A stretch of 64,000 bases of DNA from a bacterium. GTDB taxonomy: Bacteria > UBP15 > UBA6099. The notes under the pieces were generated by a model. The model worked only from the letters and a program-made list of their open reading frames with translations, was not told the origin of the DNA and made no database searches. Positions 5,165 through 64,000 of the stretch are shown in pieces. Within the stretch, counting starts at the first letter, position 1; each line of letters begins with the position of its first letter. Location of the stretch: contig DAOSYA010000001.1 in the NCBI GenBank assembly GCA_035380865.1, positions 61,044 through 125,043 on the forward strand. Direction: 5' to 3'. Position numbers and translations under genes: made by a program.

Positions 5165-5258
5165 AAACTTTCCGGAAATCACGATTGTTGTTATACATCA
5201 TTCTTATGAACTGTTATAATTCATAAAGCGAAATTGAATTGAAACGGCAATTTCAATA

Positions 5259-31108: not shown

Positions 31109-31181
31109 CAGAACGCCGTACCTTTTCGTTGCTGGCTAATATTGTAATCTAAAGGTGAAAATAAGAGTAGGCTTATGAAAT

Positions 31182-31961: not shown

Positions 31962-32088
31962 TTATACCTCATTGCAGGCAAAGGTTGCATCATGTCGCCG
32001 CCAAAATGATCCGGATTATCCCTTTTATAAACCTACACATTAATCAAGAACCACGATAAAATACATTCACATCTTTAAATTCCTGGGT

Positions 32089-33459: not shown

Positions 33460-33472
33460 AGAGAGGTAAGGG

Positions 33473-35896: not shown

Positions 35897-35955
35897 AATA
35901 TGGTTTACAATCCATTCAGATTAATTTTGCTGGGAATGAAAACTGGAGATAAAAA

Positions 35956-39632: not shown

Positions 39633-39775
39633 CAGGATAGCTCTTTTCCACTTATGACATTATAATTTAACAGGTGTCGCATGTGCAATTAGCATTATCT
39701 GTAATAGAAAAAAATATTTTACAGGTACTATAATGTTGGAAAGTTGCTCCTCATGGTGAAGCGGGCTGTCATTTT

Positions 39776-41245: not shown

Positions 41246-41262
41246 GGAAACCGGTAATTAAA

Positions 41263-48176: not shown

Positions 48177-49538
48177 TCACATACCTGCCAGCAGCCTTTC
48201 AAAATCTATATGAGGTATGTGGAATACCGCCGCGCCGTATGCCGTTGAATTAATCAGCCTCGTGTTTCCTTTGATTTCTTTTATATAAAATGATTCAAGG
48301 TCCCGCTTATAAAGATACAGAACATCGCTTGTTTTGACCGTATTGCCATATATGTCCTGAACTTCCCGCAGTTTTCCGAATCTGCCCGAATATCCCTGGG
48401 TGCGGCTTTCTGAAGCGTGTGTCTGTGTGTCTGTGAAGGCAAAGTCGGCGCCTATAAGAATAATCGGATCGGCGCCTGCCCTGAATGCAAAATCCACTGC
48501 GGGCATCAGCACTGTGCCGGAGAAGAAAAGCATTCCTTTATTGAAAGGGTCCTCTTCCGATCCAACTTTCGAGACTGCGGCATATCTGTTTTCCGGCTTG
48601 AATCTTTTTACCGAATCCGGGTTTGAAGTCTGGAAAAAAATCAGGCTTTCATCTTTTATATCAAGTTCCCGGAAAAGCAGGTCGGTTTTTTCCTGCGGGT
48701 CGCCCGTGATAACGAACGAGGGTCTGATTCCCGCTTTGTGGAAGGGAGCAAGCGCCGAGTCTACAGCGACTATCGCCGGGAGTCCGGGCTTTCTTTTCAT
48801 AATTTCAAGACTTGTGTCGAGCGACGGGCCGGCCGCTGCAACTATCATCGGCATGCTTTCATATTTCCCGAACAATTCGTTGACGCCCGGAGAACCCTCG
48901 AAGATTTCCCTGTTTCTGATACTGTTGTTTTCTCTCTGTTCCCTGAATACTTCTCTTTCATTCGATGATCCCCTGATGTATTCGAGCATGGCTCTCAACT
49001 CTTCGCTGTCATCCGGGAAGGCGTCCAGAGAGGGTTTGTGTATCAGCACGTCTATATCTTCTATTCGATTAATCGCCGGGAATCCCGAAATGAACTTGTT
49101 CAGCGATTCGTTTATCGAATCGTATGGGCCGGCAAATATGTGGAACCTGTTGTCGGCGAGCAATTGCGTCAGATCCCTGGAAGCCAGGGCAAGCTTGAAC
49201 ACATCCGCGTTCACTTCGACGGCGAACACTTTATTTATCTCCGGCCTCATCTCCAGCAGCGCTTCGATGTGGTATCCGAAGCCGAAGCCGAAGACCATCA
49301 CAATTCCGAGACTGCTTTTTAATTTCTGGGTTTCGGCCCATCTTTTCGCGTCGGTGACAGGATCGAATTTGCTGTGCAGGAAAATTTCCCTGTCACCGAG
49401 GTTCACAACCACGGAAGGGCAGTTATCAATTCTCGTGTCCACGGATTTTGCCCTGTCGAGAGGAATGTTCTCAGGGATAATAACAGGCTGAGGGCGTATT
49501 TTTAAAAGGTTTAGGTTCCGCGCAATAAATTGTTCCAT
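48177..49538 (-). CDS. DUF115 / motility-accessory-factor (Maf)-like putative glycosyltransferase
   Basis: The central IVAAAGPSLD...AIVAVDSALAPFHKAGIRPSFVITGDPQ matches the MptE/Maf (DUF115) core as I recall it. Confidence 0.65.
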   Translation of the reverse strand: MEQFIARNLNLLKIRPQPVIIPENIPLDRAKSVDTRIDNCPSVVVNLGDREIFLHSKFDPVTDAKRWAETQKLKSSLGIVMVFGFGFGYHIEALLEMRPEINKVFAVEVNADVFKLALASRDLTQLLADNRFHIFAGPYDSINESLNKFISGFPAINRIEDIDVLIHKPSLDAFPDDSEELRAMLEYIRGSSNEREVFREQRENNSIRNREIFEGSPGVNELFGKYESMPMIVAAAGPSLDTSLEIMKRKPGLPAIVAVDSALAPFHKAGIRPSFVITGDPQEKTDLLFRELDIKDESLIFFQTSNPDSVKRFKPENRYAAVSKVGSEEDPFNKGMLFFSGTVLMPAVDFAFRAGADPIILIGADFAFTDTQTHASESRTQGYSGRFGKLREVQDIYGNTVKTSDVLYLYKRDLESFYIKEIKGNTRLINSTAYGAAVFHIPHIDFERLLAGM

Positions 49539-50394: not shown

Positions 50395-53300
50395 TCACAA
50401 AGAAACCTTCAGAGTTTTTATCTCGAAATGTTTAACATCAACAATAATCCTGTTGCCTTCGATTTTTACATCGCTTCCGTTTTCAATATCGTCCTCTATG
50501 AGATTGATCTCGTGAACGCTCTTCGGTGTAACCGGAAGTGTGATTTCAGCCGTTGCGTCTTTTCCTTCGAGTTCCACGACTCTGATTACGAGGTCTTCCG
50601 ATTTCTCCGCTTTTTTCACAACGCTGAGAATTACATTGGAAGGCTCGCATGAATAAAAGCTCTTGCTTGTCGGAAGCTCTCCCCCATGGTTTTCAGTAAG
50701 TATCGAGAAAAGCGGGTAATTGAATTCATATCCTTTCCTCGGTGTATCCGCATCGCGCCAGTCGCCGCTGTGCGGATAGAGAGCGTAAGGAATGTAGTGT
50801 TTGCCCCTGTCTGCGAGAGGATCCGGCGCTGTCGGAGACCTGAGCAGCGTCATCCTCAAAACATTGTTTTTAACATCGTATCCATATTTGCTGCTGTTCA
50901 GCAGGCTGACTCCGAATTTCCCCGACCTGTCTGTGTAGTCCACCCATTTCTGTGCCGAAACTTCCCATTTTGCCTGCTCTGCCGGAGTCTTCTGAATGGC
51001 GGGTCTCTCTATTGCGGCATAAGGTATTTCGAACCAGGCTGTCTCGTTCATCATATTCAGGTTGAACGCTAGCTTTGCAATAACATTTCTTTCTTGCCAG
51101 TTTACCCTTATTGATCCATCAACCATCGGCCAGTCATTGTAGAGTGTTATATATCGATCGAAAGTGGAAACCCCGTCGCCGACGCGCTTTTCAGATTTGA
51201 GAGTGTATCTTACCGGTCCCGCCTCGACAAGTTCAACATCTCCGAGTCGGTCAAGGTATTTTTCAGCGCCGATGCCGATGTTCCAGGCGTCATAATTTTT
51301 CGGTTTGTCCTCGTAAAGCTGAAGAATGTTTCCGCCCTGTTGCGACTTGATAATTTCGTTGTTGTTCACTTTGTCGAAAATACTTTTTATATCACCGCTT
51401 TTCGGGTCCAGCTCAACTTTCAGAAAACTGTTTTCGAGAGTTGTTCCGTTGCATGAAAGGTTTGTTTGCGGCGCAGCCGCACCGGGCTTTGATACAACCC
51501 TGTACGTGGCATATCCAAGTGAAGGAATGTCACGCGCGATAAAAATAAGCTGTTGTTTATCATTTGAAAGCTCAATAATCTGCGATGGGATGATTTTCCC
51601 CGAAGGATTGATCACGGCTGGATTCTCAGGCAGTTTTTCAAGGCTGATTTTCACTATTCCATCTCTTGACCATGCCAGTGTGTTGTAAATCACCACGGCC
51701 TGTCCGTCGCCGGAAGTATTTATCCTTGAACCTATGGTATCGAACGATTCGGAAATGATTTCCTTTGCTAATCTCTGTTGCTTGGCATAATCCCGGTCCG
51801 TGTCTTTGTAGACGGAATTGATCCCGGAACCCGGGAGTATGTCGTGCATGTGGTTAAGCAGAATCCAGTACCAGCCGTCGAAAAGTTTCTGCTGCGGGTA
51901 TACCATCCCCATAGAATTCGCTATTGTTGCGAATTGTTCCGCGATCAGCATCTGGATCTGGCCCCAGCGGTTGTTTCTTTTTGTCTTTGCCTGCGTTGTA
52001 TATGTGCCCCTGTGGTATTCGAGATAAAGCTCATCGTTCCATGTCGGGAATTCATGCTTTTTCGAAAGGTCCAGAAGGTGGTTGAAATAATTTTCCGCCG
52101 ATGTGAATTTAATCTCGGGATATATATCGTTGTCTTTCAGCGCAAATGCGCGGTCGAGATGCTGTCTTGTTACGCCGCCACCGTGATCCCCGACGCCGAA
52201 TATCACGAAGTTCTCGTTAATCCCGTGGGTTTTTTTAACTTTCTTGAGCTGGTCGATCATTCTTTTTGCTTCTACCGATTCACCGTATCCGCCAACGGGA
52301 AAATATGTCAGCAGACGTGTGCCGTCGGGGCCTTCCCACCAGAAAATGTGGTACGGGAACCGGGTTGTATCGTTCCAGTTGATTTTCTGGGTCAGGAATC
52401 CGATCATGCCGGATTTTTTTATAATCTGAGGAAGGTTCCAGTTGTATCCGAAGCTGTCCGGGGTCCATGCCACGATCACGTCTTTGTTGAATTTATCGCG
52501 AAAGTAAAGTTTGCCGTAAAGGAATTGTCGTACAAAACCTTCGCCGCTCGGAAGGTTCGAATCGTGCTCACTCCACGTTCCGCCTGTTATTTCCCATCTG
52601 CCCTGATCGTAATATTTATGAAGATCTTTGTAGATTTCGGGATAATCGTCTTCCATCCATTTGTAACCATGCGATTGCGTCTCGGTGAATATGAAATCAG
52701 GATATTCTTCATAGAGCGAAAAAACAGTCCGCGCGGTGTCGCGCCATACGTTTTCTCCTTCCCGGTAATCCCAGAGCCACGCTAGATCTATGTGTGAATA
52801 TCCCAGCAGGTACATTGTGTACTGCTTCGCGATGCTTTTGAAATCATTGAGCTTCAGTGAGGCTTTTTCCAGGGATTCAAAAAGTTTTTTGTCGTTCCGT
52901 GGTTCGAGCGCGCCAAGATCGACGAGTGACGCGGCTTCTTCCATAACGCTTTCCCACCGTGCTTTCTCGTCATCTTTCATGTATTCATAGAAAAGTTTTA
53001 CAGTATCGATTTTATTCAGAAAATCATTTATTCTCTTTGTTCGCTCATCGAGCGCCGAGAACGACAGGAAGCTGTTTGTAAATATCCCGGCGGACGAAGT
53101 GCTTTCTCCGCTCATGACGATTGTGAATTTCTCTCCGGGTTTTGCGTTTTTCGTAAGAAGGGCCTCGCCCTGGTCTCGCCTGAACGCATTTTTGTTTACC
53201 CCGTCAACCCAGATTATACCGTTGCCCTCCATGTGGGCGTGGAACACCACTTTCGATCCGGCTATGTCGATCCCGGCGACTTTTTCCGGGATTTCAATTA

Positions 53301-53571
53301 TTGTCTTGAGCCATATTTTGTTACCTTCTCCTACCCATGTCTGTCCGATCCCGGCGTTTTTCCACTTGATTTTCTGCATGTCCGGGTTTGCGCAACGCTC
53401 GTCGCATTTATTCCTGGATTTCCAGTTCTTCACTGTGTATTCGTAATTATCTTTCTGTGCGCTGAGGGTTTGAACAACGGTGTCCAGTTTTTCGCCTGCA
53501 AGTGCCTCCGGAGCCGCTGTAAAAGTGCTGATGAGCAGTGCAGAGATAACAATAAATAGAGTGTTTTTCAT
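50395..53571 (-). CDS. secreted GH38 alpha-mannosidase
   Basis: Signal peptide, the GH38 catalytic-site opening LLGYSHIDLAWLW, FGVGDHGGG and about 1050 aa. Confidence 0.85.
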   Translation of the reverse strand: MKNTLFIVISALLISTFTAAPEALAGEKLDTVVQTLSAQKDNYEYTVKNWKSRNKCDERCANPDMQKIKWKNAGIGQTWVGEGNKIWLKTIIEIPEKVAGIDIAGSKVVFHAHMEGNGIIWVDGVNKNAFRRDQGEALLTKNAKPGEKFTIVMSGESTSSAGIFTNSFLSFSALDERTKRINDFLNKIDTVKLFYEYMKDDEKARWESVMEEAASLVDLGALEPRNDKKLFESLEKASLKLNDFKSIAKQYTMYLLGYSHIDLAWLWDYREGENVWRDTARTVFSLYEEYPDFIFTETQSHGYKWMEDDYPEIYKDLHKYYDQGRWEITGGTWSEHDSNLPSGEGFVRQFLYGKLYFRDKFNKDVIVAWTPDSFGYNWNLPQIIKKSGMIGFLTQKINWNDTTRFPYHIFWWEGPDGTRLLTYFPVGGYGESVEAKRMIDQLKKVKKTHGINENFVIFGVGDHGGGVTRQHLDRAFALKDNDIYPEIKFTSAENYFNHLLDLSKKHEFPTWNDELYLEYHRGTYTTQAKTKRNNRWGQIQMLIAEQFATIANSMGMVYPQQKLFDGWYWILLNHMHDILPGSGINSVYKDTDRDYAKQQRLAKEIISESFDTIGSRINTSGDGQAVVIYNTLAWSRDGIVKISLEKLPENPAVINPSGKIIPSQIIELSNDKQQLIFIARDIPSLGYATYRVVSKPGAAAPQTNLSCNGTTLENSFLKVELDPKSGDIKSIFDKVNNNEIIKSQQGGNILQLYEDKPKNYDAWNIGIGAEKYLDRLGDVELVEAGPVRYTLKSEKRVGDGVSTFDRYITLYNDWPMVDGSIRVNWQERNVIAKLAFNLNMMNETAWFEIPYAAIERPAIQKTPAEQAKWEVSAQKWVDYTDRSGKFGVSLLNSSKYGYDVKNNVLRMTLLRSPTAPDPLADRGKHYIPYALYPHSGDWRDADTPRKGYEFNYPLFSILTENHGGELPTSKSFYSCEPSNVILSVVKKAEKSEDLVIRVVELEGKDATAEITLPVTPKSVHEINLIEDDIENGSDVKIEGNRIIVDVKHFEIKTLKVSL

Positions 53572-53617: not shown

Positions 53618-55300
53618 TCAGAAAAGACCTGCATCCTGAAAGCCTTTTATGCAGATACTCAATCCTATCAGAGAAACTAACGCGCCGCTGAAATATGGAA
53701 GTATTCGGATCGCTTTTGACGTTGAAATTTTCTCATCGGCGAAGGACTTTGCTTTGACGACCATCAGGCCTATTATGATCAGTACCGCCGCCATGCCGAG
53801 GCTGAAAGAAATAGTACATAGCAGGCCGAGCGGCATTCTGTTCAGCCCGATAGAGGCGAAAAGTATCATTATCGCTGTGGGACACGGCACAATTCCGCCG
53901 GTTATCCCCAGTGTCAGGAGATCGACGAACCTTACTCCGTCCTGATTTGTATTCTGTTTATGGTCATGATCATGAGAATGATCATGGATTTCGTGTGTGT
54001 GATCATGGTCATGCTCGTGATGCTCATGCGTGTGAGGATGGGGGTGCTCGTGATGCTCATGCGATTCATCATGATCATGAGAATGTTCCATGTGCTCGTG
54101 ATGATGATGTATGTGCGGGTGATCATGATCGTGTGAATGGTGATCGTGGTCATGAGCGGGATTTATATGACGACCGAACTCGTCATGCTCGTGAGGTATG
54201 TAACCTCCAAGTTTGTTCCTGATAATTATCCATGCTCCCATTCCCAGAATTATCAGCCCTGATCCCACTCCAAGCCAGGGATATACTTTTTCAGGAGAGA
54301 GTTTGTTCCAGAAAGTCAGCAATACAAGGAATAACACAATAACGGCAGCTACATGAGTAACCGTTACAATCAGGCCCAGCTTTAAAGCGTCTGAAGCTTT
54401 TCCTTTTGTTCCAACGAGGTAGGCGGCTACAAGTGTTTTTCCGTGCCCGGGCTGCAGCGCGTGGCCTCCGCCGACAATAAACGCGAACACAAGGGCAATG
54501 ATTACAACGTTTGTAGTAAGATTCTTTTGTTCAATGAAACGCAGGAAATCGAATGCGGCGAGAGTTCGCATAAGCCAGTCGTTGAAAGTTTGCCTCAGCC
54601 CGGCAAGCCCGGTGAGTTTTTCTTTTTTCGTTTCTTTTTGCCCGAACATAACATCCGCGCGGCCCGGCCCGAATGAAAATGTCACCGAAAGGTCAAGCGG
54701 CGGGTCGGACACAAGACTATCGGGGTATTCTGTAAGCATGTAACTTGTTTTTGGGGAGAGCTTTGAAGAGTTTGCTATTTTTGTGTTTTCTGTTCCGAAT
54801 ATCCTTATTTCTTTCCAGCCGCCTACGTCCGGATAGTTACCGTCCTTGAAATAAACTTCTCTCACGCCCCATGCCCTGTATTCGATTTTTCCTGTCAGGT
54901 TAATTTCAATCCAGATCGTTTTTAAACCGGGCAGCCCATCTCTGAGTTCAATTGAACTGTTTTCTATTTCAAGTTTTACGGGGTTTCCTTCGACTTGGAG
55001 CTCAAGCCCTTCAAGAAGCTCGTCTTTCATGTATTCACCGAGAATATCCAGTTCGTTTTGAGGGTATTCTCTGTCCGGACCCGCCGTTATACCATTCTCT
55101 TTCAGTATGTGATAGGTCCTGTATTCAGCAATATCTATCAGGTAATGAATCTTTATTTCATCGCGATGTGCTCTTATTGCCGAAAAATGGCATATCGCGA
55201 AATTTCCCATCGGGTGTGCGTCAGCGGTTCCCGGAGCCAGCAAAAACAGCATCAGGGCTGAAAGAAAAAAGACGTTTTTAAAATAGTTGTATCGACTCAT
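53618..55300 (-). CDS. NicO/RcnA-family nickel/cobalt transporter fused to an N-terminal periplasmic domain, with a long His-rich loop
   Basis: Signal peptide, then AHPMGNF. NicO signature GGGHALQPGHGKTLVAAYLVG. A roughly 80-aa H/D/E loop (HDHDHHSHDHDHPHIHHHHEHMEHSHDHDESHEHHEHPHPHTHEHHEHDHDHTHEIHDHSHDHDH) precedes the second half-domain GITGGIVPCPTAI. Confidence 0.75.
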   Translation of the reverse strand: MSRYNYFKNVFFLSALMLFLLAPGTADAHPMGNFAICHFSAIRAHRDEIKIHYLIDIAEYRTYHILKENGITAGPDREYPQNELDILGEYMKDELLEGLELQVEGNPVKLEIENSSIELRDGLPGLKTIWIEINLTGKIEYRAWGVREVYFKDGNYPDVGGWKEIRIFGTENTKIANSSKLSPKTSYMLTEYPDSLVSDPPLDLSVTFSFGPGRADVMFGQKETKKEKLTGLAGLRQTFNDWLMRTLAAFDFLRFIEQKNLTTNVVIIALVFAFIVGGGHALQPGHGKTLVAAYLVGTKGKASDALKLGLIVTVTHVAAVIVLFLVLLTFWNKLSPEKVYPWLGVGSGLIILGMGAWIIIRNKLGGYIPHEHDEFGRHINPAHDHDHHSHDHDHPHIHHHHEHMEHSHDHDESHEHHEHPHPHTHEHHEHDHDHTHEIHDHSHDHDHKQNTNQDGVRFVDLLTLGITGGIVPCPTAIMILFASIGLNRMPLGLLCTISFSLGMAAVLIIIGLMVVKAKSFADEKISTSKAIRILPYFSGALVSLIGLSICIKGFQDAGLF

Positions 55301-55392: not shown

Positions 55393-56343
55393 CTAAAATT
55401 GAAGATTCGGGAAATAAAATACCTTTTCGCCTAAAACTATTGAGTTTTCAACATCTTTGAATCCTGTAAGGCTGCTGCCTTCCCACAATAATGAATTTTG
55501 AATTTTAACAGCGTTTTTGATTTTTACCTTTGACCCGATCACGCTTCTGATAATTTCCGTATCCGGGTGAATATCCGAATCGCTCGATATAATGCTTTTA
55601 CCGGTAGTATTTATCTGGTGAAGATTGCTCAGCAGCAGATCCTGTGGACTGTTTATGTTTATATCCAGATCACCGGTGACTGCGACGGCGACTTTTCCGC
55701 CCTTGTTGATAAGCATTTGTATTGAATCTGTCAGCTCATGTTCTCCCCTGGTATCAGAGAGAGGAGTTTCTTCAATAATATTGAATATTGATTCTTTAAA
55801 AATGTATAAGCCGCAGCCTCTTGTCGAATTTTTTGGTGTTCCTGGTTTTTCGCGAACTTTTTTTACCGTTCCGTCTTTATTGAGGCTGACTTCAAAACTT
55901 TTTTTGACAGACTCGGGAGGCTCGTTTTCTCGTATAAAAATGAGAGCATCATTGTCGGAGTTTTCAAATACCGAGATTTGTTTCCCGATGTTGCGGGGGG
56001 TAAGATAAATATCGCCGAGAATGACAAGAAATGGACTATCCAGGGCATTTTTTGCTTTTCCAAGCGAATCGGCTATGCCTCGGGGTTGCTTTTGAATAAT
56101 AAATTCGCAATTAAAGGTATCTCCTGTTGCTTTTTTGATATCTGATATGTAATCGGAAGAACTTAAAATGAATACAACTTCCTTGATACCGGCGGATTGA
56201 ATTATCTCCAGATGGTATTCGACAAGGGGCCGGTTCGCGACAGGTAGAAGCAGCTTGGGTGTGTTTATTCCCAGTTCGGAAATCCTGTCTCCCCGCCCTG
56301 CGGCTGGAATCACGCACTTTTTAACTTTTCCATTACCGCTCAT
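55393..56343 (-). CDS. sugar-1-phosphate nucleotidylyltransferase with C-terminal left-handed beta-helix
   Basis: KCVIPAAGRGDRISELGINTPKLLLPV (GxGxR loop), ILGDIY, and a C-terminal hexapeptide-like region. Confidence 0.8.
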   Translation of the reverse strand: MSGNGKVKKCVIPAAGRGDRISELGINTPKLLLPVANRPLVEYHLEIIQSAGIKEVVFILSSSDYISDIKKATGDTFNCEFIIQKQPRGIADSLGKAKNALDSPFLVILGDIYLTPRNIGKQISVFENSDNDALIFIRENEPPESVKKSFEVSLNKDGTVKKVREKPGTPKNSTRGCGLYIFKESIFNIIEETPLSDTRGEHELTDSIQMLINKGGKVAVAVTGDLDININSPQDLLLSNLHQINTTGKSIISSDSDIHPDTEIIRSVIGSKVKIKNAVKIQNSLLWEGSSLTGFKDVENSIVLGEKVFYFPNLQF

Positions 56344-56479: not shown

Positions 56480-57400
56480 TTGAGTGATAAATTGGATCAG
56501 AAAATCAGAATTCCTCTCAGGAAAGCGCTGTTAAAAGTTACGATGCGCTGTAATAACAGTTGCTCTTTCTGCCATGCGAGATCGCATGCAATGGTTGATG
56601 ATCCATCACTGGAAGAAGTAGGCAATAAGATTTTAGCAGCCTCAAAACTCGGGGCGGAGATGGTTGTGTTTTCCGGCGGGGAGCCTACTATCAGGAAAGA
56701 TTTTCCGGCAATTGCAAAGATAATGAAATCAATGGGGTTGCCATTTGGGATAGTAAGCAATGCCCGTATGCTGTTTTATGAAGATTATTTTAACGATCTG
56801 GCAGGCTCAGGATTAAGATATGTTCTTATATCACTGCATGGACCGAACGCTGAAATTCATAATTCCCTGACCGGTTCGGACTCATTCGACCAGACTGTGA
56901 CGGGGTTGAAAAGATGCGTGCAAGCGGGGATTAGCACCACTGTGAATTATGTTCTAACGAAGGGGAACCTCAACTGTCTGAATGAAATGGTGGATATGGT
57001 TTCTTCTTTGCCGGGAGTTGTTCTCAAATTGTCGTTTGCAGAGACCAAGGGTGCCGCTCGCGAAGGTTTCGGTGAAATTGTGCCGGATATTTCTATAGCA
57101 GCCAGGAAAGTCATGGAGGCGGTGGAATATTCAACGAGCATCAGTGATGGACGAAAGATTGTCTTGTGTGATGGATTCACGCCATGTTTGATCGATGGGT
57201 TCGAAAAGCTTAATGATGATTTGTTTACGCATGGATTCGAGTGGATGAGCGAAGTTTTTGAAGATGGTTTCTATCCTGTTGATCATGGGGCAAGAAGCCG
57301 GCCGGAAGTTTGCGAAGAGTGCGGAAAACGGGCTGAATGCCCCGGCGTTTACAGTGGTTATCTTGAACTAAAAGGAGCGGGCGAGTTCAGGCCTTTGTGA
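56480..57400 (+). CDS. radical SAM protein, MoaA/PqqE-like core with partial SPASM (twitch-like) C-terminal Cys motif
   Basis: TTG start. Core MRCNNSCSFC, FSGGEPTIRKDF and LISLHGPNAEIHNSLTG. C-terminal CEECGKRAECPG (Cx2Cx5C). Confidence 0.8.
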   Translation: MSDKLDQKIRIPLRKALLKVTMRCNNSCSFCHARSHAMVDDPSLEEVGNKILAASKLGAEMVVFSGGEPTIRKDFPAIAKIMKSMGLPFGIVSNARMLFYEDYFNDLAGSGLRYVLISLHGPNAEIHNSLTGSDSFDQTVTGLKRCVQAGISTTVNYVLTKGNLNCLNEMVDMVSSLPGVVLKLSFAETKGAAREGFGEIVPDISIAARKVMEAVEYSTSISDGRKIVLCDGFTPCLIDGFEKLNDDLFTHGFEWMSEVFEDGFYPVDHGARSRPEVCEECGKRAECPGVYSGYLELKGAGEFRPL

Positions 57401-57453
57401 CAGCGTGTTTAATCGACGCAACTATAGTATAGGTCTGACACGATAAAAAGACG

Positions 57454-60400
57454 ATGGCTGAAAAGCAGTCCAACTCGATGAATTTTCTTTATGTGACGGA
57501 GTGGTTCGGACCACAGAGAGCATGCTGCCCGCTTTTGTGTGGAGTGGAACTTCCACATGATCCCGACAGGTACATTTTCATCGGTTCATCGAACAGGCTG
57601 AAATTGTATAAAACAGATACACGCGATTTTACAGATGAAGAGATTCGATCAATAAAATTCGTAACCGGGCAGATTTATCTGGATAAAACAGGCAAAACAA
57701 ATAATCTTGATTTCAGGCGTGATATGGTGAAGCTGAACCTGAGTGAGAAATGCTCGGGTTGTGACAGAAAAGAATATTGTCCGGGATTGTTCATGCCTTG
57801 CGGCGATGCGGTTTATGATGAGTCGGAAAGGCCTGTGATTGATGCACTGAAAGAGTTGAACGGACGGGTACTCGATGTCGGCTGCGGCAGCGGGTTTTAT
57901 GACGATATTCTGAAAAAGCTTATAGACAAAGGAGTAATTGATTATCTGGGCATTGATCCTGAAATCTCGGAGAGCAGGCTGTCCGCTGGATTGAGAACAG
58001 AAAAAACCACCATTGAAGAGTTTGAAGATGAGGATGAATCGTATGATCATATACTTGTATTGAGAAGTCATAATCATTTCAGGGATGAAAGACTTGCATA
58101 CGATAAAATGGAAAGACTTCTCAAGCCCGGAGGATATCTTCTGGTAGTTGATAATACAAAATATGCTATGGTCCGGCAACCCGGATATAAAGAATCGGTT
58201 GCCGGGAATGATGCTCCGTCACAGCATTATCGAAATGATACGTCATTTGAATTGCTCGATAAAGTAAAAGACCGGCACCTTTCTGTAGAACAACACTATC
58301 CTGTAAGGGCAGATGGTTTTAATCAGTGGGTTCTCAGTTTCAAGAAGAATACAACGGAACATGTTGATGTATTGATTATCAATCCTCCGGTACGCCTTAA
58401 AAAAGACTTTGTCGATTATCCATATTACACGAATATTGGTGTATTGCAGAACGCCGCTCATTTGAAGGAAACAGGATACAGAGTGGCTTTAATTGATTCA
58501 TTTTCATTGCCTGACGGCGAGTTGACCGAGATTGAAGATGATTTTTTGAGGCTGGGGTCAGGAATTGAAAGAATAGGTAAAGAAATAGAAAGATATTCAG
58601 CAGATGTTATTTTTGTTGCAAGAAATCCGTTCAACTATGATTCAAAAGGAAATGATTTAATAACAGAATTAGTGAAGATGATACGAAAAAAAGCGTTGGA
58701 TACTCCTTTATTATATGCCGATTTTTATGTCGGGGGAATGCATTATATCGAAGAGGAAGACGAAGACATATTAAGACTTTATCCTGAATTCGACGGCCTT
58801 TTAAGATACGAATGCGAGAAGATATTGCCAGAAGCAATTGAATCGATAAAAGAAAAAGGCATTAAAAAAGTAAAGGTATGGCACGGCGATGCCGGACAGG
58901 TTGATCTTGATGAGACGGTGTTCCCGGATTGGGATATGATACATTATGAGCAGCACCAGAGAATAACAGAGCATTTTTTCAAGAAGCTCAACAGAACAAA
59001 GCATTTCTCGATCATAAGAAATACGTTCCCGTTGATGACAGGACGAAGCTGTCCATATAGTTGTGTTTTCTGCACACATGATCCGGGACAGGGCGAGAGA
59101 AGAACCTCGAATTACCGGACATATGACCTGAAAAGGATTGAAGAACATATTAACAGGCTCAAAACAGCCCATTATGCAAAAAAGCTTATAATACTTGATG
59201 AAATTGCTAATGCGAAAGAGTCTCATTTTGAAGGTTTGCTCGAAATACTGGAAAAATCAGGACTCAAATACGATTTTCCGAACGGCTTGAGGGCCGACAG
59301 GCTGAAAAAAGAGCATATCCTGAAAATGTCCGGAAGTATTGACACATTATCGGTGAGTGCAGAGAGCGGATCACAGGTGATTATCGATAATGTGATAGGC
59401 AAAAATCAGAATCTCGAAAGTATTGAGAATGTAGCAAAATGGTGTTCGGATGCGGGAGTGAGGTTGATAATCCATTACATGATCGGACTTCCCGGAGAAA
59501 CTGGAAAAGATATCAATATTACACTTGGTCATGCATTAAAAATGCATAGCGAATATGGCGCTATACCATCGGTTCAGTTTATTAATCCAATCCCGGGGAC
59601 ACACCTCTACAATAGCCTGCCTGAACAAAAAAGAGTTGGGATTAAAAACAACCGTGATATAATGTCCCATTTTTTCGATGAACCGATAAGTTGCAGTGAT
59701 GTACCCTCGTCCGATCTTGTTAAGTTCAAGGATAGTTTCGAGATGGGAAAAAGGGTAGGCAGAACGGAAAAGGTCATTATAAACCTGACGTATGAATGTA
59801 ATAACAGGTGCAGGTTCTGCGCGATAGGTTTGAGGGAGAGGAACACGCTTTCTATTGAAACGGTTAAGAAGTTTCTGGTTGATTATCGGGAAAAGGGTGT
59901 AAGGCTTGTTGATTTTGACGGCGGTGAGCCGACGCTGCACGAGAATCTTCCTGCAATAATACGAATAGCGCAGAAGCTTGGATATGAAAAAATCAATGTA
60001 ACCAGCAATGGAAGAAAATTGTCGTCTCGACCGTATGTTTCAAGACTTCTTCTGTCCGGAATCACGGATCTGCTGATATCGATTCATGGGCACACAGAAG
60101 AGATTCATGAAGCACATACTACGAAAAAAGGCAGTTTCCACGAAACATATCAGGGGATAAAAAACGTTTTGAGACTTAAGCCGGAGAGGATAGATTTTGG
60201 ATTGAACATCACGGTAACAAAAATTAATGGTCCCCGGCTATATGAGTTCGCGGAGCATTTTGCCGGGCTGGGGATAAAAAAAATCAATGTACAATTCATA
60301 ACCCCGTTCGGGAGCATAGACCGGGATATTGTGCCGGATCCGGAAGAAGTGACGCCTCAGCTCAGGAAAACAATAGACGGATTTTCGGATAAAATTCAGA

Positions 60401-60621
60401 TAAATGTCGTAAATCTGCCATTTTGTTTCATGCCGGGGTATGAGAGGTTTCTTGTGAGCGATATAGAAAAGAAGTGCAGGAACATGGTATTCGTGACGGA
60501 AGAAGATGTTAATCTAAGCGAATTTTTAAGCGGCGGGCGTAAAAGAACTGAAGAATGCGAGGATTGTTTGTATTCGATCCTGTGTGATGGTAAATATCAC
60601 TTCGACATAATAGGATTTTAG
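57454..60621 (+). CDS. 1055-aa fusion: Cys-rich N-domain + class I SAM methyltransferase + B12-type radical SAM + second MoaA/SPASM-like radical SAM
   Basis: One uninterrupted ORF. Motifs in order: CSGCDRKEYCPG; MTase motif I VLDVGCGSGFY and LKPGGYLLVVD; VDVLIINPPV Rossmann-like domain; core 1 GRSCPYSCVFC with SAESGSQVI and GLPGET; core 2 YECNNRCRFC with FDGGEPTLHENL and LISIHGHTEEIH; C-terminal CEDCLYSILCDG. Confidence 0.8.
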   Translation: MAEKQSNSMNFLYVTEWFGPQRACCPLLCGVELPHDPDRYIFIGSSNRLKLYKTDTRDFTDEEIRSIKFVTGQIYLDKTGKTNNLDFRRDMVKLNLSEKCSGCDRKEYCPGLFMPCGDAVYDESERPVIDALKELNGRVLDVGCGSGFYDDILKKLIDKGVIDYLGIDPEISESRLSAGLRTEKTTIEEFEDEDESYDHILVLRSHNHFRDERLAYDKMERLLKPGGYLLVVDNTKYAMVRQPGYKESVAGNDAPSQHYRNDTSFELLDKVKDRHLSVEQHYPVRADGFNQWVLSFKKNTTEHVDVLIINPPVRLKKDFVDYPYYTNIGVLQNAAHLKETGYRVALIDSFSLPDGELTEIEDDFLRLGSGIERIGKEIERYSADVIFVARNPFNYDSKGNDLITELVKMIRKKALDTPLLYADFYVGGMHYIEEEDEDILRLYPEFDGLLRYECEKILPEAIESIKEKGIKKVKVWHGDAGQVDLDETVFPDWDMIHYEQHQRITEHFFKKLNRTKHFSIIRNTFPLMTGRSCPYSCVFCTHDPGQGERRTSNYRTYDLKRIEEHINRLKTAHYAKKLIILDEIANAKESHFEGLLEILEKSGLKYDFPNGLRADRLKKEHILKMSGSIDTLSVSAESGSQVIIDNVIGKNQNLESIENVAKWCSDAGVRLIIHYMIGLPGETGKDINITLGHALKMHSEYGAIPSVQFINPIPGTHLYNSLPEQKRVGIKNNRDIMSHFFDEPISCSDVPSSDLVKFKDSFEMGKRVGRTEKVIINLTYECNNRCRFCAIGLRERNTLSIETVKKFLVDYREKGVRLVDFDGGEPTLHENLPAIIRIAQKLGYEKINVTSNGRKLSSRPYVSRLLLSGITDLLISIHGHTEEIHEAHTTKKGSFHETYQGIKNVLRLKPERIDFGLNITVTKINGPRLYEFAEHFAGLGIKKINVQFITPFGSIDRDIVPDPEEVTPQLRKTIDGFSDKIQINVVNLPFCFMPGYERFLVSDIEKKCRNMVFVTEEDVNLSEFLSGGRKRTEECEDCLYSILCDGKYHFDIIGF

Positions 60622-60720
60622 ATTTAATACCTCTTTTAAATATATTCAGATTAATTGTCTTATATGCTACAATTTATTAGATTGGTAAATTTGTGTGTCT
60701 GGATGGTCGATATAATAAAT

Positions 60721-63700
60721 ATGACATCTATGAAGCGATTTTTATACATAACTCTATCTTTTTTCCTTGTGATGATTTCGTTAATCGCTATTCCCGGTGT
60801 TTCGGAGAATAACCTGAGCCGAGAATTTGAGGCCGGATGGGAGCTGGTGTCGTTCCCATTGATGATGGACGGGGAAAACCTGTGCGAGGCAATGCCATCG
60901 GCTACTGCGGTATCTATTGACGAAGGTGAATATGAAGTATGTGATGCTGATAGTGAGATTTTGATAGAAGCAGGAAGAGGATACTGGATATATCTAAAGG
61001 AAGAAATCAGTGTTCCCTTTACGTCAACATACAGAGTGACAACCGAGGGTGTCAGAGTTCAGCTTAAAAAGGGATGGAATCTCATAGGCTCTCCGTCCAG
61101 TCTGGGTGTTGAATGGAACGATGACATATTGATAGATGGAGCAGAACTCAGTAAGTCCTCGAAGGTAAACCGGCTTCTTCTGAAATATGATGCGGTAAAT
61201 AGAAAGTATGTTGTGTCTGATTCAATGGAACCATGGGAAGGTTATGCGATGTATGCATACGAGCCATGCGTTCTTGAGTTCAGCGAGCTTGAGCTCGGAG
61301 ATTTATCGGCGCGAACTGTTGCGAGAGAAGAAATTGTTATAGATCAGGAGACAGGAAAGCCGGTAGTTAAAGATCAGGTACTTGTAGAAATAGCGCAGGG
61401 TGTGACGGAAGAAGCGCTCAAGAGCCTTGTTTCGTCATTCGGGGGGACGATCGCAGGTAGGAATGCATATCTGGGGATATACCAGGTGCTGCTGCCCGAA
61501 GGGACTGACATTGAAACAGTCACAGAGTTGTTAAAAACCGGAAACACGGTGAAATCTGTTGCGAAGCATGCGGTATTGAAATCGTCTGATTTGATACCGC
61601 TTGATCCGCCGTATGAAGAGGGCGCGGATTCTTTGCAGAAACAGCCGTTTTATCGAATAAAGGCAAACAAGATCTGGGGCGCATACAGTTTCGATTACGA
61701 TCCTGTGGTGGCGGTAGTGGATTCGGGGGTAAGCGCTGAAAGCGAAGATCTTTCCGGAAGACTCGTTGCGGGAGTTACATATGTTGGGGAAGATAATCCC
61801 GCGACGGTTGATGATAACGGTCATGGAACTCACGTTGCCGGGATAATCGCAGCGATTCCGAATAATTTCAAGGGCATAGCAGGGGTGTGTTGGAACTGCC
61901 GGATAATGCCTGTGAAGGTTTGTGACTCGGAAGGCAACTGTCCTTTTTATGGTGTTATGAATGGAATTACGTATGCTGCAAGAAATGGAGCTGATGTAAT
62001 AAATCTCAGCATTGAGGGAGAAGCGGAGCCGGGTTCGGATGAATGGGAAATATTCCAGAACGTAATAGATTACGCGGCTGAAAAAAACGTATTTGTAGCA
62101 GCGGCGGCGGGGAACAGCGCGAAGAACGCGGTGAATACAATTCCCGCAGCGCTGGACGGCGTTTTTGCCGTTGGATCTATAGCCGCCGATGACAGCCGAT
62201 CTGTTTTTTCTAATTTCGGCGACAGCGTCGATATCGCAGCTCCGGGTGAAGATGTGTTTTCGCTTGAACCGGGCGGCGCGACCGGGTACAGGGAAGGAAC
62301 ATCTGCGGCTGCGGCTTTTGTCTCGGGTGCGGCGGCTCTGTTCAAAAGCCTGATTCCCGGGATTACCCCACAGGAAATTGAGAATAAACTGAAAAGCGGT
62401 GCCGATGAAGTTGCCGGGCTTGATACCGGCGCAGGAGTCCTGAATCTTGAATCGGCTTTTGCGGAATATGAGAGCAGCAATGTTGCTCCGGTGATACTTA
62501 ATATCCAGGCGATACCGTACACGGTATATCCCGGCGGGTCTGCGGATGTGATCGCAAAAGTGGTGGATCCGAACGGGGATGCGATCGAGTATGACTGGGA
62601 ATGTTCGGGCGGAACCCTGAACTCCGTTTCAGATGGCAGGGTGCTATGGGGCTCGCCTGAAAAGCGAGGCGAATACATAATCAGCCTGGGTGCGGGAGAC
62701 GGCAAGGGAGCAGTCGCTACGGCGTCCGTGTCGATAGTATCCGGACTCGACGACATGATAACGATGTCGCTGAAACCGACCGGGAAATACGTTCATGTCG
62801 GAGACATAGTTACGCTGGAAGTCGTCGGCGAATTCATGGATGCGTTTTTCAGACCGGTTCAGGCCGTGTGGGAAATGAACAGTCCGCACGGTGTGATAAC
62901 ATGGGGCGGTGAGTTCACAGCGCTTTCGCCCGGCGATGCATTAATAACAGCGCATGCCGGAGAGCATACGGGCAATTATGTGATCCATGTTCTCGAAGCG
63001 GGAGAGGAGCCGCCCGCGCTTACCCTGTCGAATTTTGCAGCCCCCAATCCGCCGGGAACGAATATATATCTGGGCGACCTTTCAGGTGAGCAGATTGTGA
63101 TGGGAGATGTCGATAACGATGGTTACAACGATGTAATAATAGGAGAGAACGGTTCACAGAACCTGGTATATCTCAACAATGGTGATGGCACATTTGCAGC
63201 AGCGATAACGCTGAGCCAGAGTTGCCAAACAAAGAATATGGACCTTGCCGATATTGATGCGGACGGCAACCTCGATCTTGCGGAAGCGTGTTTCGCGAAC
63301 GGAGGTGTCAACGTATATCTTGGCAACGGCAACGGTACTTTCACATATGACGCTAATTATTGCGCGGGTTGCAGCGCTTCGGCTGTAAATTTAGCCGATA
63401 TGAACAACAACCTGAGATACGATATGGTTGTAGGAGTATCGAACAATGGGCAGAGCAACCGGATATTTTATGGTAACGGGGATGGGACATTTAATGCCGT
63501 TGGAGATGCAGTAGGGTCCGCGCTGGATACCTGGGCGCTCAAAACCGGATATTTTGATGATGACGATTATCTTGATTTTGTAGAAGCAAATTATAACGAT
63601 CTGGCAAAATTATATGTTTATAACACTACGACGGAGACTTATGATCTCGAGTGGCAATCCGCAGCCAATCTTTTCCCGTACACACTCGAAGTCGCGGAAA

Positions 63701-64000
63701 TACGTGGTTATAACTCAGGTGAATGCGAGGGGGATTGGGACTTTATTGTAGTATATCATGCAGGTGGTTCGCGATTCATAATTTACAGGGTCCGGGCAAG
63801 CGATTTGAACATAACATCGTTCGGCCTTGCGGATTCGGGTACCGAGCCGGAATTTTACAATATAGCGGTCGGTGATCTTTCTAACGACAATATGCCCGAT
63901 GTTCTGCTGATGACGAATGACGCCGAACCGGGCCAGATGTGGGGGCATGATGCGCTCTCCGCGCCCGGCTGGTGCGGTTCGAATGTCAAAAAGCTTACTT
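60721..64000 (+). CDS. secreted subtilisin-family (S8) serine protease with I9-like propeptide, Ig-like domains and FG-GAP/VCBS repeats; 3' end outside window
   Basis: Not in the supplied track because no stop lies inside the window. I read all codons from 60721 to 64000 in frame and found no stop. Signal peptide MKRFLYITLSFFLVMISLIAIPG (ATG 60730 is an alternative start). Catalytic triad VAVVDSGV (D at 61720), HGTHVAG (H at 61822) and GTSAAAAFVSGAAAL (S at 62302). FG-GAP-like units DVDNDGYNDVIIGENG...NGDGTF and DIDADGNLDL...GNGNGTF. Confidence 0.85.
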   Translation, partial: MTSMKRFLYITLSFFLVMISLIAIPGVSENNLSREFEAGWELVSFPLMMDGENLCEAMPSATAVSIDEGEYEVCDADSEILIEAGRGYWIYLKEEISVPFTSTYRVTTEGVRVQLKKGWNLIGSPSSLGVEWNDDILIDGAELSKSSKVNRLLLKYDAVNRKYVVSDSMEPWEGYAMYAYEPCVLEFSELELGDLSARTVAREEIVIDQETGKPVVKDQVLVEIAQGVTEEALKSLVSSFGGTIAGRNAYLGIYQVLLPEGTDIETVTELLKTGNTVKSVAKHAVLKSSDLIPLDPPYEEGADSLQKQPFYRIKANKIWGAYSFDYDPVVAVVDSGVSAESEDLSGRLVAGVTYVGEDNPATVDDNGHGTHVAGIIAAIPNNFKGIAGVCWNCRIMPVKVCDSEGNCPFYGVMNGITYAARNGADVINLSIEGEAEPGSDEWEIFQNVIDYAAEKNVFVAAAAGNSAKNAVNTIPAALDGVFAVGSIAADDSRSVFSNFGDSVDIAAPGEDVFSLEPGGATGYREGTSAAAAFVSGAAALFKSLIPGITPQEIENKLKSGADEVAGLDTGAGVLNLESAFAEYESSNVAPVILNIQAIPYTVYPGGSADVIAKVVDPNGDAIEYDWECSGGTLNSVSDGRVLWGSPEKRGEYIISLGAGDGKGAVATASVSIVSGLDDMITMSLKPTGKYVHVGDIVTLEVVGEFMDAFFRPVQAVWEMNSPHGVITWGGEFTALSPGDALITAHAGEHTGNYVIHVLEAGEEPPALTLSNFAAPNPPGTNIYLGDLSGEQIVMGDVDNDGYNDVIIGENGSQNLVYLNNGDGTFAAAITLSQSCQTKNMDLADIDADGNLDLAEACFANGGVNVYLGNGNGTFTYDANYCAGCSASAVNLADMNNNLRYDMVVGVSNNGQSNRIFYGNGDGTFNAVGDAVGSALDTWALKTGYFDDDDYLDFVEANYNDLAKLYVYNTTTETYDLEWQSAANLFPYTLEVAEIRGYNSGECEGDWDFIVVYHAGGSRFIIYRVRASDLNITSFGLADSGTEPEFYNIAVGDLSNDNMPDVLLMTNDAEPGQMWGHDALSAPGWCGSNVKKLT

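What the first reader, a model, noticed from the sequence alone, without database searches (positions are those of the whole stretch)
56480..60621. Stand-alone SPASM/twitch rSAM followed by a 1055-aa methyltransferase + B12-rSAM + rSAM fusion
One uninterrupted ORF (57454-60621) links three SAM-using catalytic modules. These are a class I methyltransferase (VLDVGCGSGFY near 57868-57897), a class B-type rSAM (SCPYSCVFC near 59050-59076) and a second rSAM (ECNNRCRFC near 59794-59820). The C-terminal module is a clear paralogue of the 306-aa rSAM encoded 53 nt upstream. Compare FSGGEPTIRKDF with FDGGEPTLHENL, VSNARML with TSNGRKL, and LISLHGPNAEIHNSLTGSDSFDQTVTGLK with LISIHGHTEEIHEAHTTKKGSFHETYQGIK. 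So the locus carries three rSAM cores plus a conventional methyltransferase in two genes. I know of no characterised enzyme with this domain order. The neighbours are a divergent sugar-1-P nucleotidylyltransferase and a downstream secreted S8 protease. This fits either modification of an NDP-sugar or other small molecule, or a RiPP-like pathway, but I found no precursor-peptide ORF.
Basis: partly seen in the sequence, partly recalled or inferred. Interest (0 to 1): 0.75.

Follow-up and report, generated by a model that had tools for sequence, protein, structure and literature searches.

The report
Orphan His-Xaa-Ser-type radical SAM cassette
Two adjacent genes encode three radical-SAM modules and a methyltransferase; they are a re-fused version of helper enzymes that elsewhere modify His-Gly-Ser repeat peptides, but here they sit beside sugar-activating genes and a giant secreted protease with no such peptide nearby.

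Summary
ORFs 56480-57400 (306 aa) and 57454-60621 (1055 aa) exist, all motifs are intact, and the small rSAM is a paralogue of the fusion's C-terminal module (29% identity, E=4e-24). An independent assembly carries the same uninterrupted ORF, so it is not a chimera.

The module set is not new. In most relatives the same four modules are arranged as [rSAM-A + Cys-rich domain + methyltransferase] plus [B12-like rSAM + rSAM-C]. Here the boundary is shifted. Only two 50%-identity clusters among 1.84 billion representatives have this fusion.

The family belongs to expanded type-4 His-Xaa-Ser (Hxs) systems. 36 related loci carry (HGS)n-W HxsA peptides. The nearest outgroup, L006, has the same fusion and passes the curated HxsA4, HxsB and HxsD models.

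The 64-kb window and its closest relatives lack HxsA, HxsB and HxsD. They keep an NTP-transferase, a Maf-like glycosyltransferase and a giant S8 protease instead.

Most likely this is an Hxs-derived tailoring cassette that is uncoupled from its usual partners. Whether its substrate is a peptide or protein, or a sugar, is unresolved. I rate it a new variant of a known kind, of moderate interest.

The parts
56480..57400 (+). rA: stand-alone HxsC-like radical SAM protein (306 aa). CX3CX2C at aa 24-31 (56549-56572). C-terminal Cys tail C229/C235...C277xxC280x5C286-PG.
   Evidence: ORF. Radical_SAM 8.9e-26. Best NCBIfam hits are HxsC4 (106 bits) and HxsC (87 bits), both below cutoff. Orthologous to the N-terminal rSAM of ~600-aa rA-Nt-MT proteins. 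The TTG start is preferred, because the 269-aa gene call in the source record would delete the cluster motif.
57454..57819 (+). Nt domain of the fusion (aa 1-122): an undescribed alpha/beta domain with conserved C25, C100, C103, C109 (CxxCx5C-PG).
   Evidence: Conserved columns. Confident model. No Pfam family. Not HxsD. Only the Cys motif matches the rA/rC tails (hhalign E=7.6e-5).
57826..58341 (+). Class I SAM-dependent methyltransferase module (aa ~125-296), motif I VLDVGCGSG.
   Evidence: Methyltransf_11/23/25/31/12 hits. Rossmann MT fold with generic small-molecule MT matches.
58351..58953 (+). Rossmann-like, B12-binding-type N-terminal domain of the middle rSAM (aa ~300-500), with conserved DYPY, GGxH and YExE motifs.
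   Evidence: Sub-threshold NCBIfam class B models reach into this region. Model pLDDT 93. Two-domain matches to AprD4, MgmA, TokK, TsrM, CysS and OxsB. One family member hits PF02310.
58966..59748 (+). rSAM-B core (aa ~505-765), CX3CX2C at C533/C537/C540.
   Evidence: invariant Cys; AprD4 8e-19.
59762..60621 (+). rSAM-C (aa ~770-1055): HxsC-like rSAM, paralogue of rA. CX3CX2C at C782/C786/C789. Tail C991...C1035xxC1038x5C1044.
   Evidence: HxsC4 117 bits, HxsC 88 bits; paralogy; invariant Cys; BlsE 3e-21.
55393..56343 (-). Divergently transcribed sugar-1-phosphate nucleotidylyltransferase with a C-terminal LbH domain (316 aa). Conserved neighbour in the window clade.
   Evidence: Pfam NTP_transferase 6e-22. 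NCBIfam Arch_glmU and rmlA_long below cutoff. Orthologues lie next to the rSAM genes in L001, L002, L004 and L007.
48177..49538 (-). Maf-like (MptE-like + Maf_flag10_N) putative glycosyltransferase. Conserved neighbour in the window clade.
   Evidence: Pfam. 50% identity to the L001 Maf-like protein. Present in L001, L004, L007 and L008.
60703..64000 (+). 5' part of a 4,701-aa secreted protein (signal peptide, S8 protease, Ig/PKD and FG-GAP repeats; further on, PQQ-propeller and beta-helix repeats). Conserved downstream neighbour; runs off the window.
   Evidence: Full length from the source record. Orthologues lie downstream of the rSAM genes in L008 (44% over 892 aa) and L002 (46% over 163 aa). 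No HxS motifs in the first 1,880 aa.

Best explanation
The two genes are an intact, rearranged copy of the four-module accessory tailoring set of type-4 His-Xaa-Ser (HxsA4) systems. The modules are:
- an HxsC-like rSAM (rA);
- a Cys-bearing Nt domain plus a class I methyltransferase;
- a class-B-like (Rossmann + rSAM) module;
- a second HxsC-like rSAM.

In most lineages the set is encoded as [rA-Nt-MT] + [B12-like rSAM-rSAM]. In this lineage rA is separate and the methyltransferase gene has fused to the next gene, in a single ancestral event.

Shown: homology, architecture, intact catalytic motifs, the family's link to (HGS)n-W peptides, and the absence of HxsA/B/D here.

Inferred: the cassette still acts on a ribosomally made, secreted peptide or protein that is not encoded beside it. 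It would carry out several SAM-dependent steps: two HxsC-type radical steps, one class-B-type step (C-methylation if cobalamin is bound, otherwise AprD4-like radical chemistry), and one ordinary O- or N-methylation. The neighbouring NTP-transferase and Maf-like transferase would add a sugar to the same product.
For: Domain content and intact CX3CX2C, GGE and motif I.

Split equivalents with the same modules. The split point lies in the rA-Nt linker. The MT-to-B12 junction has the same length in every fused form.

Family link to Hxs:
- HxsB 488 bits against a cutoff of 370.
- HxsA4 79 bits against 55 and HxsD 63 bits against 50 in L006, which carries the same fusion at 42% identity.
- (HGS)n-W peptides in 19 of 80 genome loci and in 17 of 33 metagenome loci longer than 8 kb.
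- The closest rA-Nt-MT proteins also lie in HxsD/HxsB/HxsA clusters.
- In the NJ tree L006 is sister to the window clade, and Hxs-linked loci occur in all deep clades.
- rA and rC score best against HxsC4 and HxsC.

Hxs loci L052, L058, L059 and L070 also contain an NTP-transferase and a GT1. Peptide and sugar genes can therefore belong to one system.

HxsA is a modified, exported effector in the classical system (PMC13128918).
Against: No HxsA-like repeat, leader or C-terminal motif, and no HxsB or HxsD, is found in the 64-kb window. None is found in the flanks of L001, L002, L004, L007 or L008.

HxsB, HxsC and HxsD are all required in the classical system (PMC13128918), so a cassette without HxsB and HxsD may have a different substrate.

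The conserved partners in this clade are sugar-related (NTP-transferase, Maf, GT1, carbamoyltransferase).

The nearest solved structures (AprD4, BlsE) act on sugars or nucleosides.

The conserved giant S8 neighbour has no HxS motifs.

About 60-70% of family loci show no Hxs genes within 10 kb. Cobalamin binding is unproven.
Confidence: 0.45

Rival explanations
1. Exaptation to glycan chemistry. In this clade the Hxs-derived cassette no longer touches a peptide. Instead it tailors a nucleotide-sugar made by the adjacent NTP-transferase, by radical C-methylation, dehydration, epimerisation or decarboxylation plus O/N-methylation. Maf, GT1 or a GT-C-like enzyme then transfers the sugar to a surface protein such as the giant S8 protein.
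For: The NTP-transferase and Maf-like genes stay linked to the rSAM genes in all five window-clade lineages despite rearrangements. GT1, carbamoyltransferase, GT9 and a 615-aa membrane protein are also present in several of them. HxsA/B/D are absent. The giant secreted protein is conserved downstream. The best solved-structure relatives are AprD4 (TM 0.67-0.70) and BlsE (E=3e-21), both sugar or nucleoside enzymes.
Against: At 42% identity with the same architecture as the L006 protein, which sits in a sugar-gene-free Hxs cluster, a change of substrate class would be unusual. HMM scores favour HxsC-type models (1e-25 to 1e-33) over BlsE (1e-13). PDB coverage of rSAM enzymes is sparse, so 'nearest structure' is weak evidence. 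The window itself lacks GT1, the carbamoyltransferase and the 615-aa protein.
Confidence: 0.33
2. Lipid or other small-molecule tailoring, as part of the large radical-SAM-rich region of this contig (four B12-rSAMs, a Tes/TrsS-like rSAM, GT2 and PMT_2 at 29.7-44 kb).
For: Many rSAM genes lie 12-27 kb upstream. There are weak hits of the fusion to lipid B12-rSAM and Tes models.
Against: Those genes are separated from the locus by housekeeping genes (H+-PPase, MurA). They are not found beside the orthologues in L001, L004, L007 or L008. Scores to lipid models are far below cutoff.
Confidence: 0.07
3. Evolutionary relic: a leftover of a decayed Hxs cluster with no current function.
For: The essential partners HxsA/B/D are missing from the neighbourhood.
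Against: All three CX3CX2C motifs, the GGE motifs, MT motif I and the Cys tails are intact. The 1055-aa ORF is preserved end to end at 42-50% identity in several diverged lineages. Synteny with the NTP-transferase, Maf and the S8 giant is conserved.
Confidence: 0.07
4. Assembly or frameshift artefact created the long ORF.
For: The sequence comes from a metagenome-assembled genome, and no reads were available.
Against: The same uninterrupted ORF is in an independently assembled JGI contig, with 3 nt differences. Orthologues of 1031-1077 aa with an identical junction length occur in other samples.
Confidence: 0.02

Closest known systems
His-Xaa-Ser (Hxs/HXS) system, especially the curated 'type 4' variant (NCBIfam HxsA4 NF038313, HxsC4 NF038332). 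The classical HxsD-B-C-A system is an antiphage defence (PMC13128918). It was first predicted in silico by Haft and Basu, as cited in PMC9062424.
   Same: rA and rC score best against HxsC4 and HxsC. Orthologues and split equivalents of both window genes lie inside clusters with bona fide HxsB, HxsD and HxsA4-type (HGS)n-W peptides.
   Different: The window has no HxsA, HxsB or HxsD. Scores to HxsC and HxsC4 are far below cutoff (88 against 268; 117 against 500). The classical system has no methyltransferase and no B12-like rSAM. The context here is an NTP-transferase, Maf and a giant S8 protein.
Class B (cobalamin-dependent) radical SAM methylases (TokK, TsrM, CysS, MgmA, OxsB fold) and the cobalamin-free relative AprD4.
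   Same: The middle module has the same two-domain Rossmann + rSAM architecture (TM 0.51-0.70). It has GGxH and ExE-type motifs and weak HMM similarity to BzaD, HpnJ, ApyD and P-methyltransferase models.
   Different: Identity is only 13-16%. There is no Pfam B12-binding hit. The best match is a dehydratase that does not use cobalamin. The module is fused on both sides to other catalytic modules.
Twitch/SPASM-type rSAM enzymes acting on sugars or nucleosides and on peptides (BlsE, SkfB, PqqE, MoaA).
   Same: rA and rC have the same core and a Cys-rich C-terminal extension. BlsE is the best solved-structure sequence match (E=3e-21 and 8e-10).
   Different: All curated model scores are far below cutoff (BlsE 50 against 400). 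There is no SPASM Pfam hit. The tail motif C...CxxCx5C-PG is specific to this family and recurs in the Nt domain.
~600-aa 'radical SAM + SAM-dependent methyltransferase' proteins (P0007-P0028), uncharacterised.
   Same: These are the unsplit form of window rA + Nt + MT, at 31-40% identity over Nt-MT and with the same conserved residues.
   Different: In the window the rSAM part is a separate gene, and Nt-MT is fused to the next gene instead.

Membership tests
His-Xaa-Ser (Hxs) system | HxsA precursor or effector with His-Xaa-Ser repeats encoded in the cluster | tested here: not met
   Six-frame regex searches for repeats, leader and terminal motifs found nothing in the 64-kb window or in L001, L002, L004, L007 and L008. 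The same searches found 36 HxsA peptides in related loci.
His-Xaa-Ser (Hxs) system | HxsB (TIGR03978) rSAM/SPASM maturase present | tested here: not met
   tblastn with the L006 HxsB gave no hit in the window at E<=1e-6. It did hit about 36 related loci.
His-Xaa-Ser (Hxs) system | HxsD (TIGR03976 / PF27806) present | tested here: not met
   No tblastn hit in the window.
His-Xaa-Ser (Hxs) system | HxsC-type rSAM scoring above the curated cutoff | tested here: not met
   rA: HxsC 87 bits against 268, HxsC4 106 bits against 500. rC: HxsC 88 bits against 268, HxsC4 117 bits against 500. These are the best hits but sub-threshold.
His-Xaa-Ser (Hxs) system | Orthologues of the genes reside in bona fide Hxs clusters | tested here: met
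   L006 carries the same fusion at 42% identity, with HxsB 488 bits (cutoff 370), HxsA4 79 bits (cutoff 55) and HxsD 63 bits (cutoff 50). L158 and L159 hold the closest rA-Nt-MT proteins.
Class B cobalamin-dependent radical SAM enzymes | N-terminal Rossmann-type cobalamin-binding domain followed by an rSAM core with CX3CX2C | tested here: inconclusive
   The fold and CX3CX2C are present. Pfam PF02310 does not hit this protein and hits 1 of 120 listed family members. The top structural match, AprD4, lacks cobalamin.
Class B cobalamin-dependent radical SAM enzymes | Cobalamin bound and used for methyl transfer | not testable with these tools
   Needs cofactor analysis of purified protein.
SPASM/twitch radical SAM enzymes | C-terminal Cys-rich extension binding one (twitch) or two (SPASM) auxiliary [4Fe-4S] clusters | tested here: inconclusive
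   Four conserved Cys are present in rC (C991, C1035, C1038, C1044) and in rA, enough for one cluster. No SPASM model hit at E<=0.01.
Class I SAM-dependent methyltransferases | Rossmann MT fold with GxGxG motif I | tested here: met
   Five Pfam MT models score above their cutoffs at aa 133-240. The confident model matches many class I MTs.
RiPP biosynthetic gene cluster | Precursor peptide gene adjacent to the maturases | tested here: not met
   No conserved small ORF is shared by the window and its clade. The only conserved small ORF (68 aa, in L004, L007 and L008) is absent from the window and from L001.
NDP-sugar / aminoglycoside tailoring rSAM enzymes (BlsE, AprD4, DesII, GenK type) | Equivalog-level similarity to a characterised sugar-modifying rSAM | tested here: not met
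   BlsE model 50 bits against a cutoff of 400. AprD4 and BlsE are the nearest solved structures only at 15% identity and E=1e-19 to 1e-21.

The most novel reading that the evidence does not exclude
A maturase cassette that evolved for His-Gly-Ser repeat peptides has been captured by a protein-glycosylation locus. It now builds a new radical-modified, methylated sugar, which a Maf-type transferase puts on a 4,701-aa secreted subtilase/adhesin. This would be a cross-over of RiPP-type radical SAM enzymes into glycan biosynthesis.
Probability: 0.25. Interest if true: 0.8.

Novelty: new variant of a known kind. Interest (0 to 1): 0.55.

Why it matters
The classical HXS system was shown only in 2026 to be an antiphage defence, and its radical chemistry is still unknown (PMC13128918). 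The family found here shows that much larger Hxs variants exist outside Pseudomonadota. These have up to about ten rSAM domains and HxsA peptides with up to 47 HGS repeats. They carry a methyltransferase and a B12-like rSAM as regular partners.

The window's version is a natural 'Rosetta stone'. The fusion shows that the methyltransferase, the B12-like rSAM and an HxsC-like rSAM work together. The loss of HxsA/B/D linkage, with retained linkage to sugar-activating genes, gives a testable case of either split RiPP-like clusters or substrate switching.

The locus also supplies compact constructs (two genes, four activities) for biochemical work on Hxs-type chemistry.

Tried and rejected
- **Misassembly or frameshift:** rejected. 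Independent assemblies and orthologues preserve the ORF and the junction.
- **Hidden HxsA-like precursor in the window:** repeat, leader ('FLTSEEGK') and terminal ('HGSW*') motif searches, His-rich small-ORF screens, generic peptide-repeat screens and TRF were all negative.
- **Conserved small ORF as an alternative precursor:** only a 68-aa acidic ORF is shared, by L004, L007 and L008. It is absent from the window and from L001.
- **Nt domain as HxsD or an RRE-like domain:** hhalign probability 0.1% and no Pfam hit.
- **The 615-aa membrane protein of related loci as a PMT_2/GT-C homologue of the window's 747-aa protein:** no similarity.
- **Giant S8 protein as an HxS-type substrate:** no HxS motifs and 0.9% His.
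- **Known defence system:** PADLOC gives only generic viperin-like rSAM similarity.
- **Riboswitch or other RNA at the locus:** Rfam finds only two tRNAs far away.
- **More window-clade loci from metagenomes:** the scan returned only the general family at 35-40% identity.
- **Looking past the window's right end:** blocked by the 14-kb S8 gene.
- **Taxonomy:** the closest relatives of MurA are unclassified 'bacterium' MAGs, so no phylum could be named.

Full report
**1. Observation.**
The window has ORFs at 56480-57400 (+, 306 aa, TTG start) and 57454-60621 (+, 1055 aa), 53 nt apart. Pfam and NCBIfam give the following for the long protein:
- class I methyltransferase models at aa 133-240;
- a first Radical_SAM core preceded by a region that aligns, below cutoff, to B12-binding rSAM families (BzaD aa 379-689, Sden_1168 P-methyltransferase aa 297-720, HpnJ, ApyD);
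- a second Radical_SAM core at aa 776-908.

The 306-aa protein (rA) is a paralogue of the C-terminal module (rC): 29% identity over 284 aa, E=4e-24. Upstream and divergent is an NTP_transferase+LbH protein. Downstream is a secreted Peptidase_S8 protein.

**2. Is the fusion real?**
The window is identical to contig CAZABR010000001.1 (302 kb) of MAG GCA_964483305.1. An independently assembled JGI metagenome contig (3300010350) carries the same 3,168-nt ORF with three substitutions and no frame disruption.

Full-length orthologues of 1031-1077 aa at 42-50% identity occur in other samples. Their MT-to-B12 junction has the same length, so there was one ancestral fusion, maintained since.

The source record's 269-aa gene call for rA would remove the cluster-binding motif, so the longer TTG-initiated ORF is preferred.

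**3. The modules are not a new combination.**
Homology searches and a scan of 185,579 species genomes show a large family of ~750-aa proteins equal to aa ~306-1051 of the fusion (B12-like rSAM + rC). There are 455 representatives at E<=1e-30. They occur mostly in Myxococcota (including cultured Nannocystis), Elusimicrobia and Binatia. A second family of ~600-aa proteins equals rA + the first 300 aa of the fusion.

My ORF maps of 86 loci give a common layout: [rA-Nt-MT] [B12-like rSAM-rC] [rC-like rSAM]. In the window's clade the layout is [rA] [Nt-MT-B12-like rSAM-rC]. The break lies in the rA-Nt linker ('PNSFLY' in P0007, 'SNSMNFLY' at the start of the fusion).

An exhaustive HMMER search of 1.84 billion representatives finds only two 50%-identity clusters with the end-to-end fusion. 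The architecture is therefore rare, but the partnership is common. The various fusion states act as a Rosetta stone showing that the four modules work together.

**4. What the family does elsewhere.**
A recurring neighbour passes the curated HxsB model (488 bits, cutoff 370). Another neighbour is HxsD. Six-frame searches found (HGS)n-W peptides, the HxsA type, in these sets:
- 19 of 80 genome loci;
- 17 of the 72 metagenome loci, 33 of which are longer than 8 kb.

The peptides have 4 to 47 repeats.

HGS is the only family-specific peptide repeat. Locus L006 carries the same fusion at 42% identity and passes HxsA4 (79 against 55), HxsD (63 against 50) and HxsB. It also has seven further rSAM domains. 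The closest rA-Nt-MT proteins (P0007, P0008) lie in HxsD/HxsB/HxsA clusters too.

In a neighbour-joining tree of the core, L006 is sister to the window clade. Hxs-linked loci occur in all deep clades. The classical four-gene HXS system is an antiphage defence in which HxsB/C/D mature an exported HxsA; the chemistry is unsolved (PMC13128918). The system was predicted in silico earlier (Haft and Basu, as cited in PMC9062424).

**5. What is different here.**
The whole 64-kb window has no HxsA repeat, leader or terminal motif, and no HxsB or HxsD. The same holds for the flanks of its closest relatives L001, L002, L004, L007 and L008.

This clade instead keeps the following:
- the NTP-transferase and a Maf-like (MptE-like) glycosyltransferase, in all five lineages;
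- in several lineages, a 615-aa membrane protein, GT1, carbamoyltransferase, GT9 and a third rC-like rSAM;
- downstream, a giant secreted S8 protein, 4,701 aa in the source record, with orthologues in L008 (44% over 892 aa) and L002.

The window itself retains only the NTP-transferase, Maf and the S8 giant. Four Hxs-linked Myxococcota loci (L052, L058, L059, L070) also include an NTP-transferase and a GT1, so peptide and sugar genes can coexist in one system.

**6. Module-level evidence.**
- *Middle module (aa 296-768).* It was modelled at pLDDT 93. It matches two-domain Rossmann+rSAM enzymes: AprD4 best (TM 0.67-0.70), then MgmA, MiaB, TokK, TsrM, CysS and OxsB. Conserved GGxH and YExE motifs resemble those of B12-binding domains (my knowledge). 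Pfam PF02310 does not hit, so cobalamin use is open.
- *Nt+MT region.* It was modelled at pLDDT 90. The MT is a generic class I fold.
- *Nt domain (aa 1-122).* It has conserved C25, C100, C103 and C109. It has no Pfam family and is unrelated to HxsD. It shares only the CxxCx5C-PG-x-Y/F motif with the tails of rA and rC. This Cys motif therefore recurs three times and probably ligates metal or Fe-S centres (inference).
- *rA and rC.* They score best against HxsC4 and HxsC (1e-25 to 1e-33), far below cutoffs. Among solved structures they are nearest to BlsE.

**7. Interpretation.**
Secure: this is an intact, rearranged Hxs-type accessory cassette that is uncoupled from HxsA/B/D.

Less secure is the substrate. 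I favour a ribosomal peptide or protein encoded elsewhere, possibly also glycosylated by the neighbouring enzymes (0.45). The reasons are the 42% identity and identical architecture to a protein in a sugar-free Hxs cluster, and the HxsC-type best matches.

The main rival (0.33) is exaptation to nucleotide-sugar or glycan tailoring. It is supported by the conserved NTP-transferase/Maf/GT context, by the loss of HxsB and HxsD (essential in the classical system), and by the sugar-acting nearest structures.

Lipid tailoring, a relic, and an artefact are minor alternatives.

**8. Novelty and score.**
The locus fails the membership test for an Hxs system: no HxsA, HxsB or HxsD, and sub-threshold HxsC scores. 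It clearly descends from one, so it is a new variant of a known kind. The fusion itself is rare but explained. Interest is moderate (0.55). It would be higher if the sugar reading proves true.

The host is an uncultured, unclassified bacterium. Its MurA is 63-76% identical to MurA of unclassified MAGs and 57% identical to that of Clostridia.

Noticed in passing
window 29696-44066: A dense radical-SAM region. It holds four canonical B12-binding rSAMs (470, 479, 489 and 512 aa; BchE/HpnJ/ApyD-like, below cutoffs). It also holds a Tes/TrsS-like rSAM with an HMPTM zinc ribbon (434 aa), a GT2, a PMT_2 (GT-C) protein of 747 aa and two proteins of 456 and 807 aa with no family. It may be a lipid or glycan modification cluster of its own.
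   Followed up: partly
window 53618-55300 (-): A 560-aa NicO-family Ni/Co transporter sits directly beside the NTP-transferase. It has an extra ~260-aa N-terminal domain and a long His/Asp-rich loop. It is conserved in the same-species assemblies L162 and L163 only. A link to cobalt supply or to His-rich peptides is speculation.
   Followed up: partly
L001 ~2400-2480, L004 ~6640-6720, L007 ~5200-5290, L008 ~2910-2990: A ~75-nt DNA element of two hairpins (GCCGCTC/GAGCGGC and GTGTTGC/GCAACAC) lies just downstream of the Maf-like gene. It is nearly identical in four loci whose proteins are only 50-75% identical. It has no Rfam match and is absent from the window.
   Followed up: partly
L004 6887-7093, L008 3158-3364, L007 4827-5054 (-): A conserved 68-75-aa acidic ORF lies next to the Maf-like gene (76-99% identity). 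It has no Pfam family and is absent from the window and from L001.
   Followed up: partly
L006 6263-19127; L097, L110; L158 260-16750: Very large type-4 Hxs clusters. L006 has HxsD, HxsB, HxsA4, a double rSAM, the fusion and five more rSAMs in a row. HxsA peptides reach 37-47 HGS repeats in L110 and L097. L158 also encodes a Peptidase_A24-like protein and a canonical B12-rSAM.
   Followed up: partly
window 56480-57400; L161 8944-9753; L001 9048-9836: Automatic gene calls for rA (269 and 262 aa) start downstream of the CX3CX2C motif and would encode an inactive protein. The longer ORF with a TTG start restores the motif and matches homologues.
   Followed up: yes
window 60703-64000 and beyond (L161 1-5641): The downstream 'S8 protease' is a 4,701-aa secreted giant with S8, Ig/PKD, FG-GAP, PQQ-propeller and beta-helix repeats. 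It is conserved downstream of the rSAM genes in three lineages.
   Followed up: partly
window 50395-53571 (-): A 1,058-aa GH38 alpha-mannosidase with an apparent signal peptide, and a 244-aa secreted TPR protein (49599-50333), lie between Maf and the NicO transporter. They are found only in the same-species assemblies.
   Followed up: no
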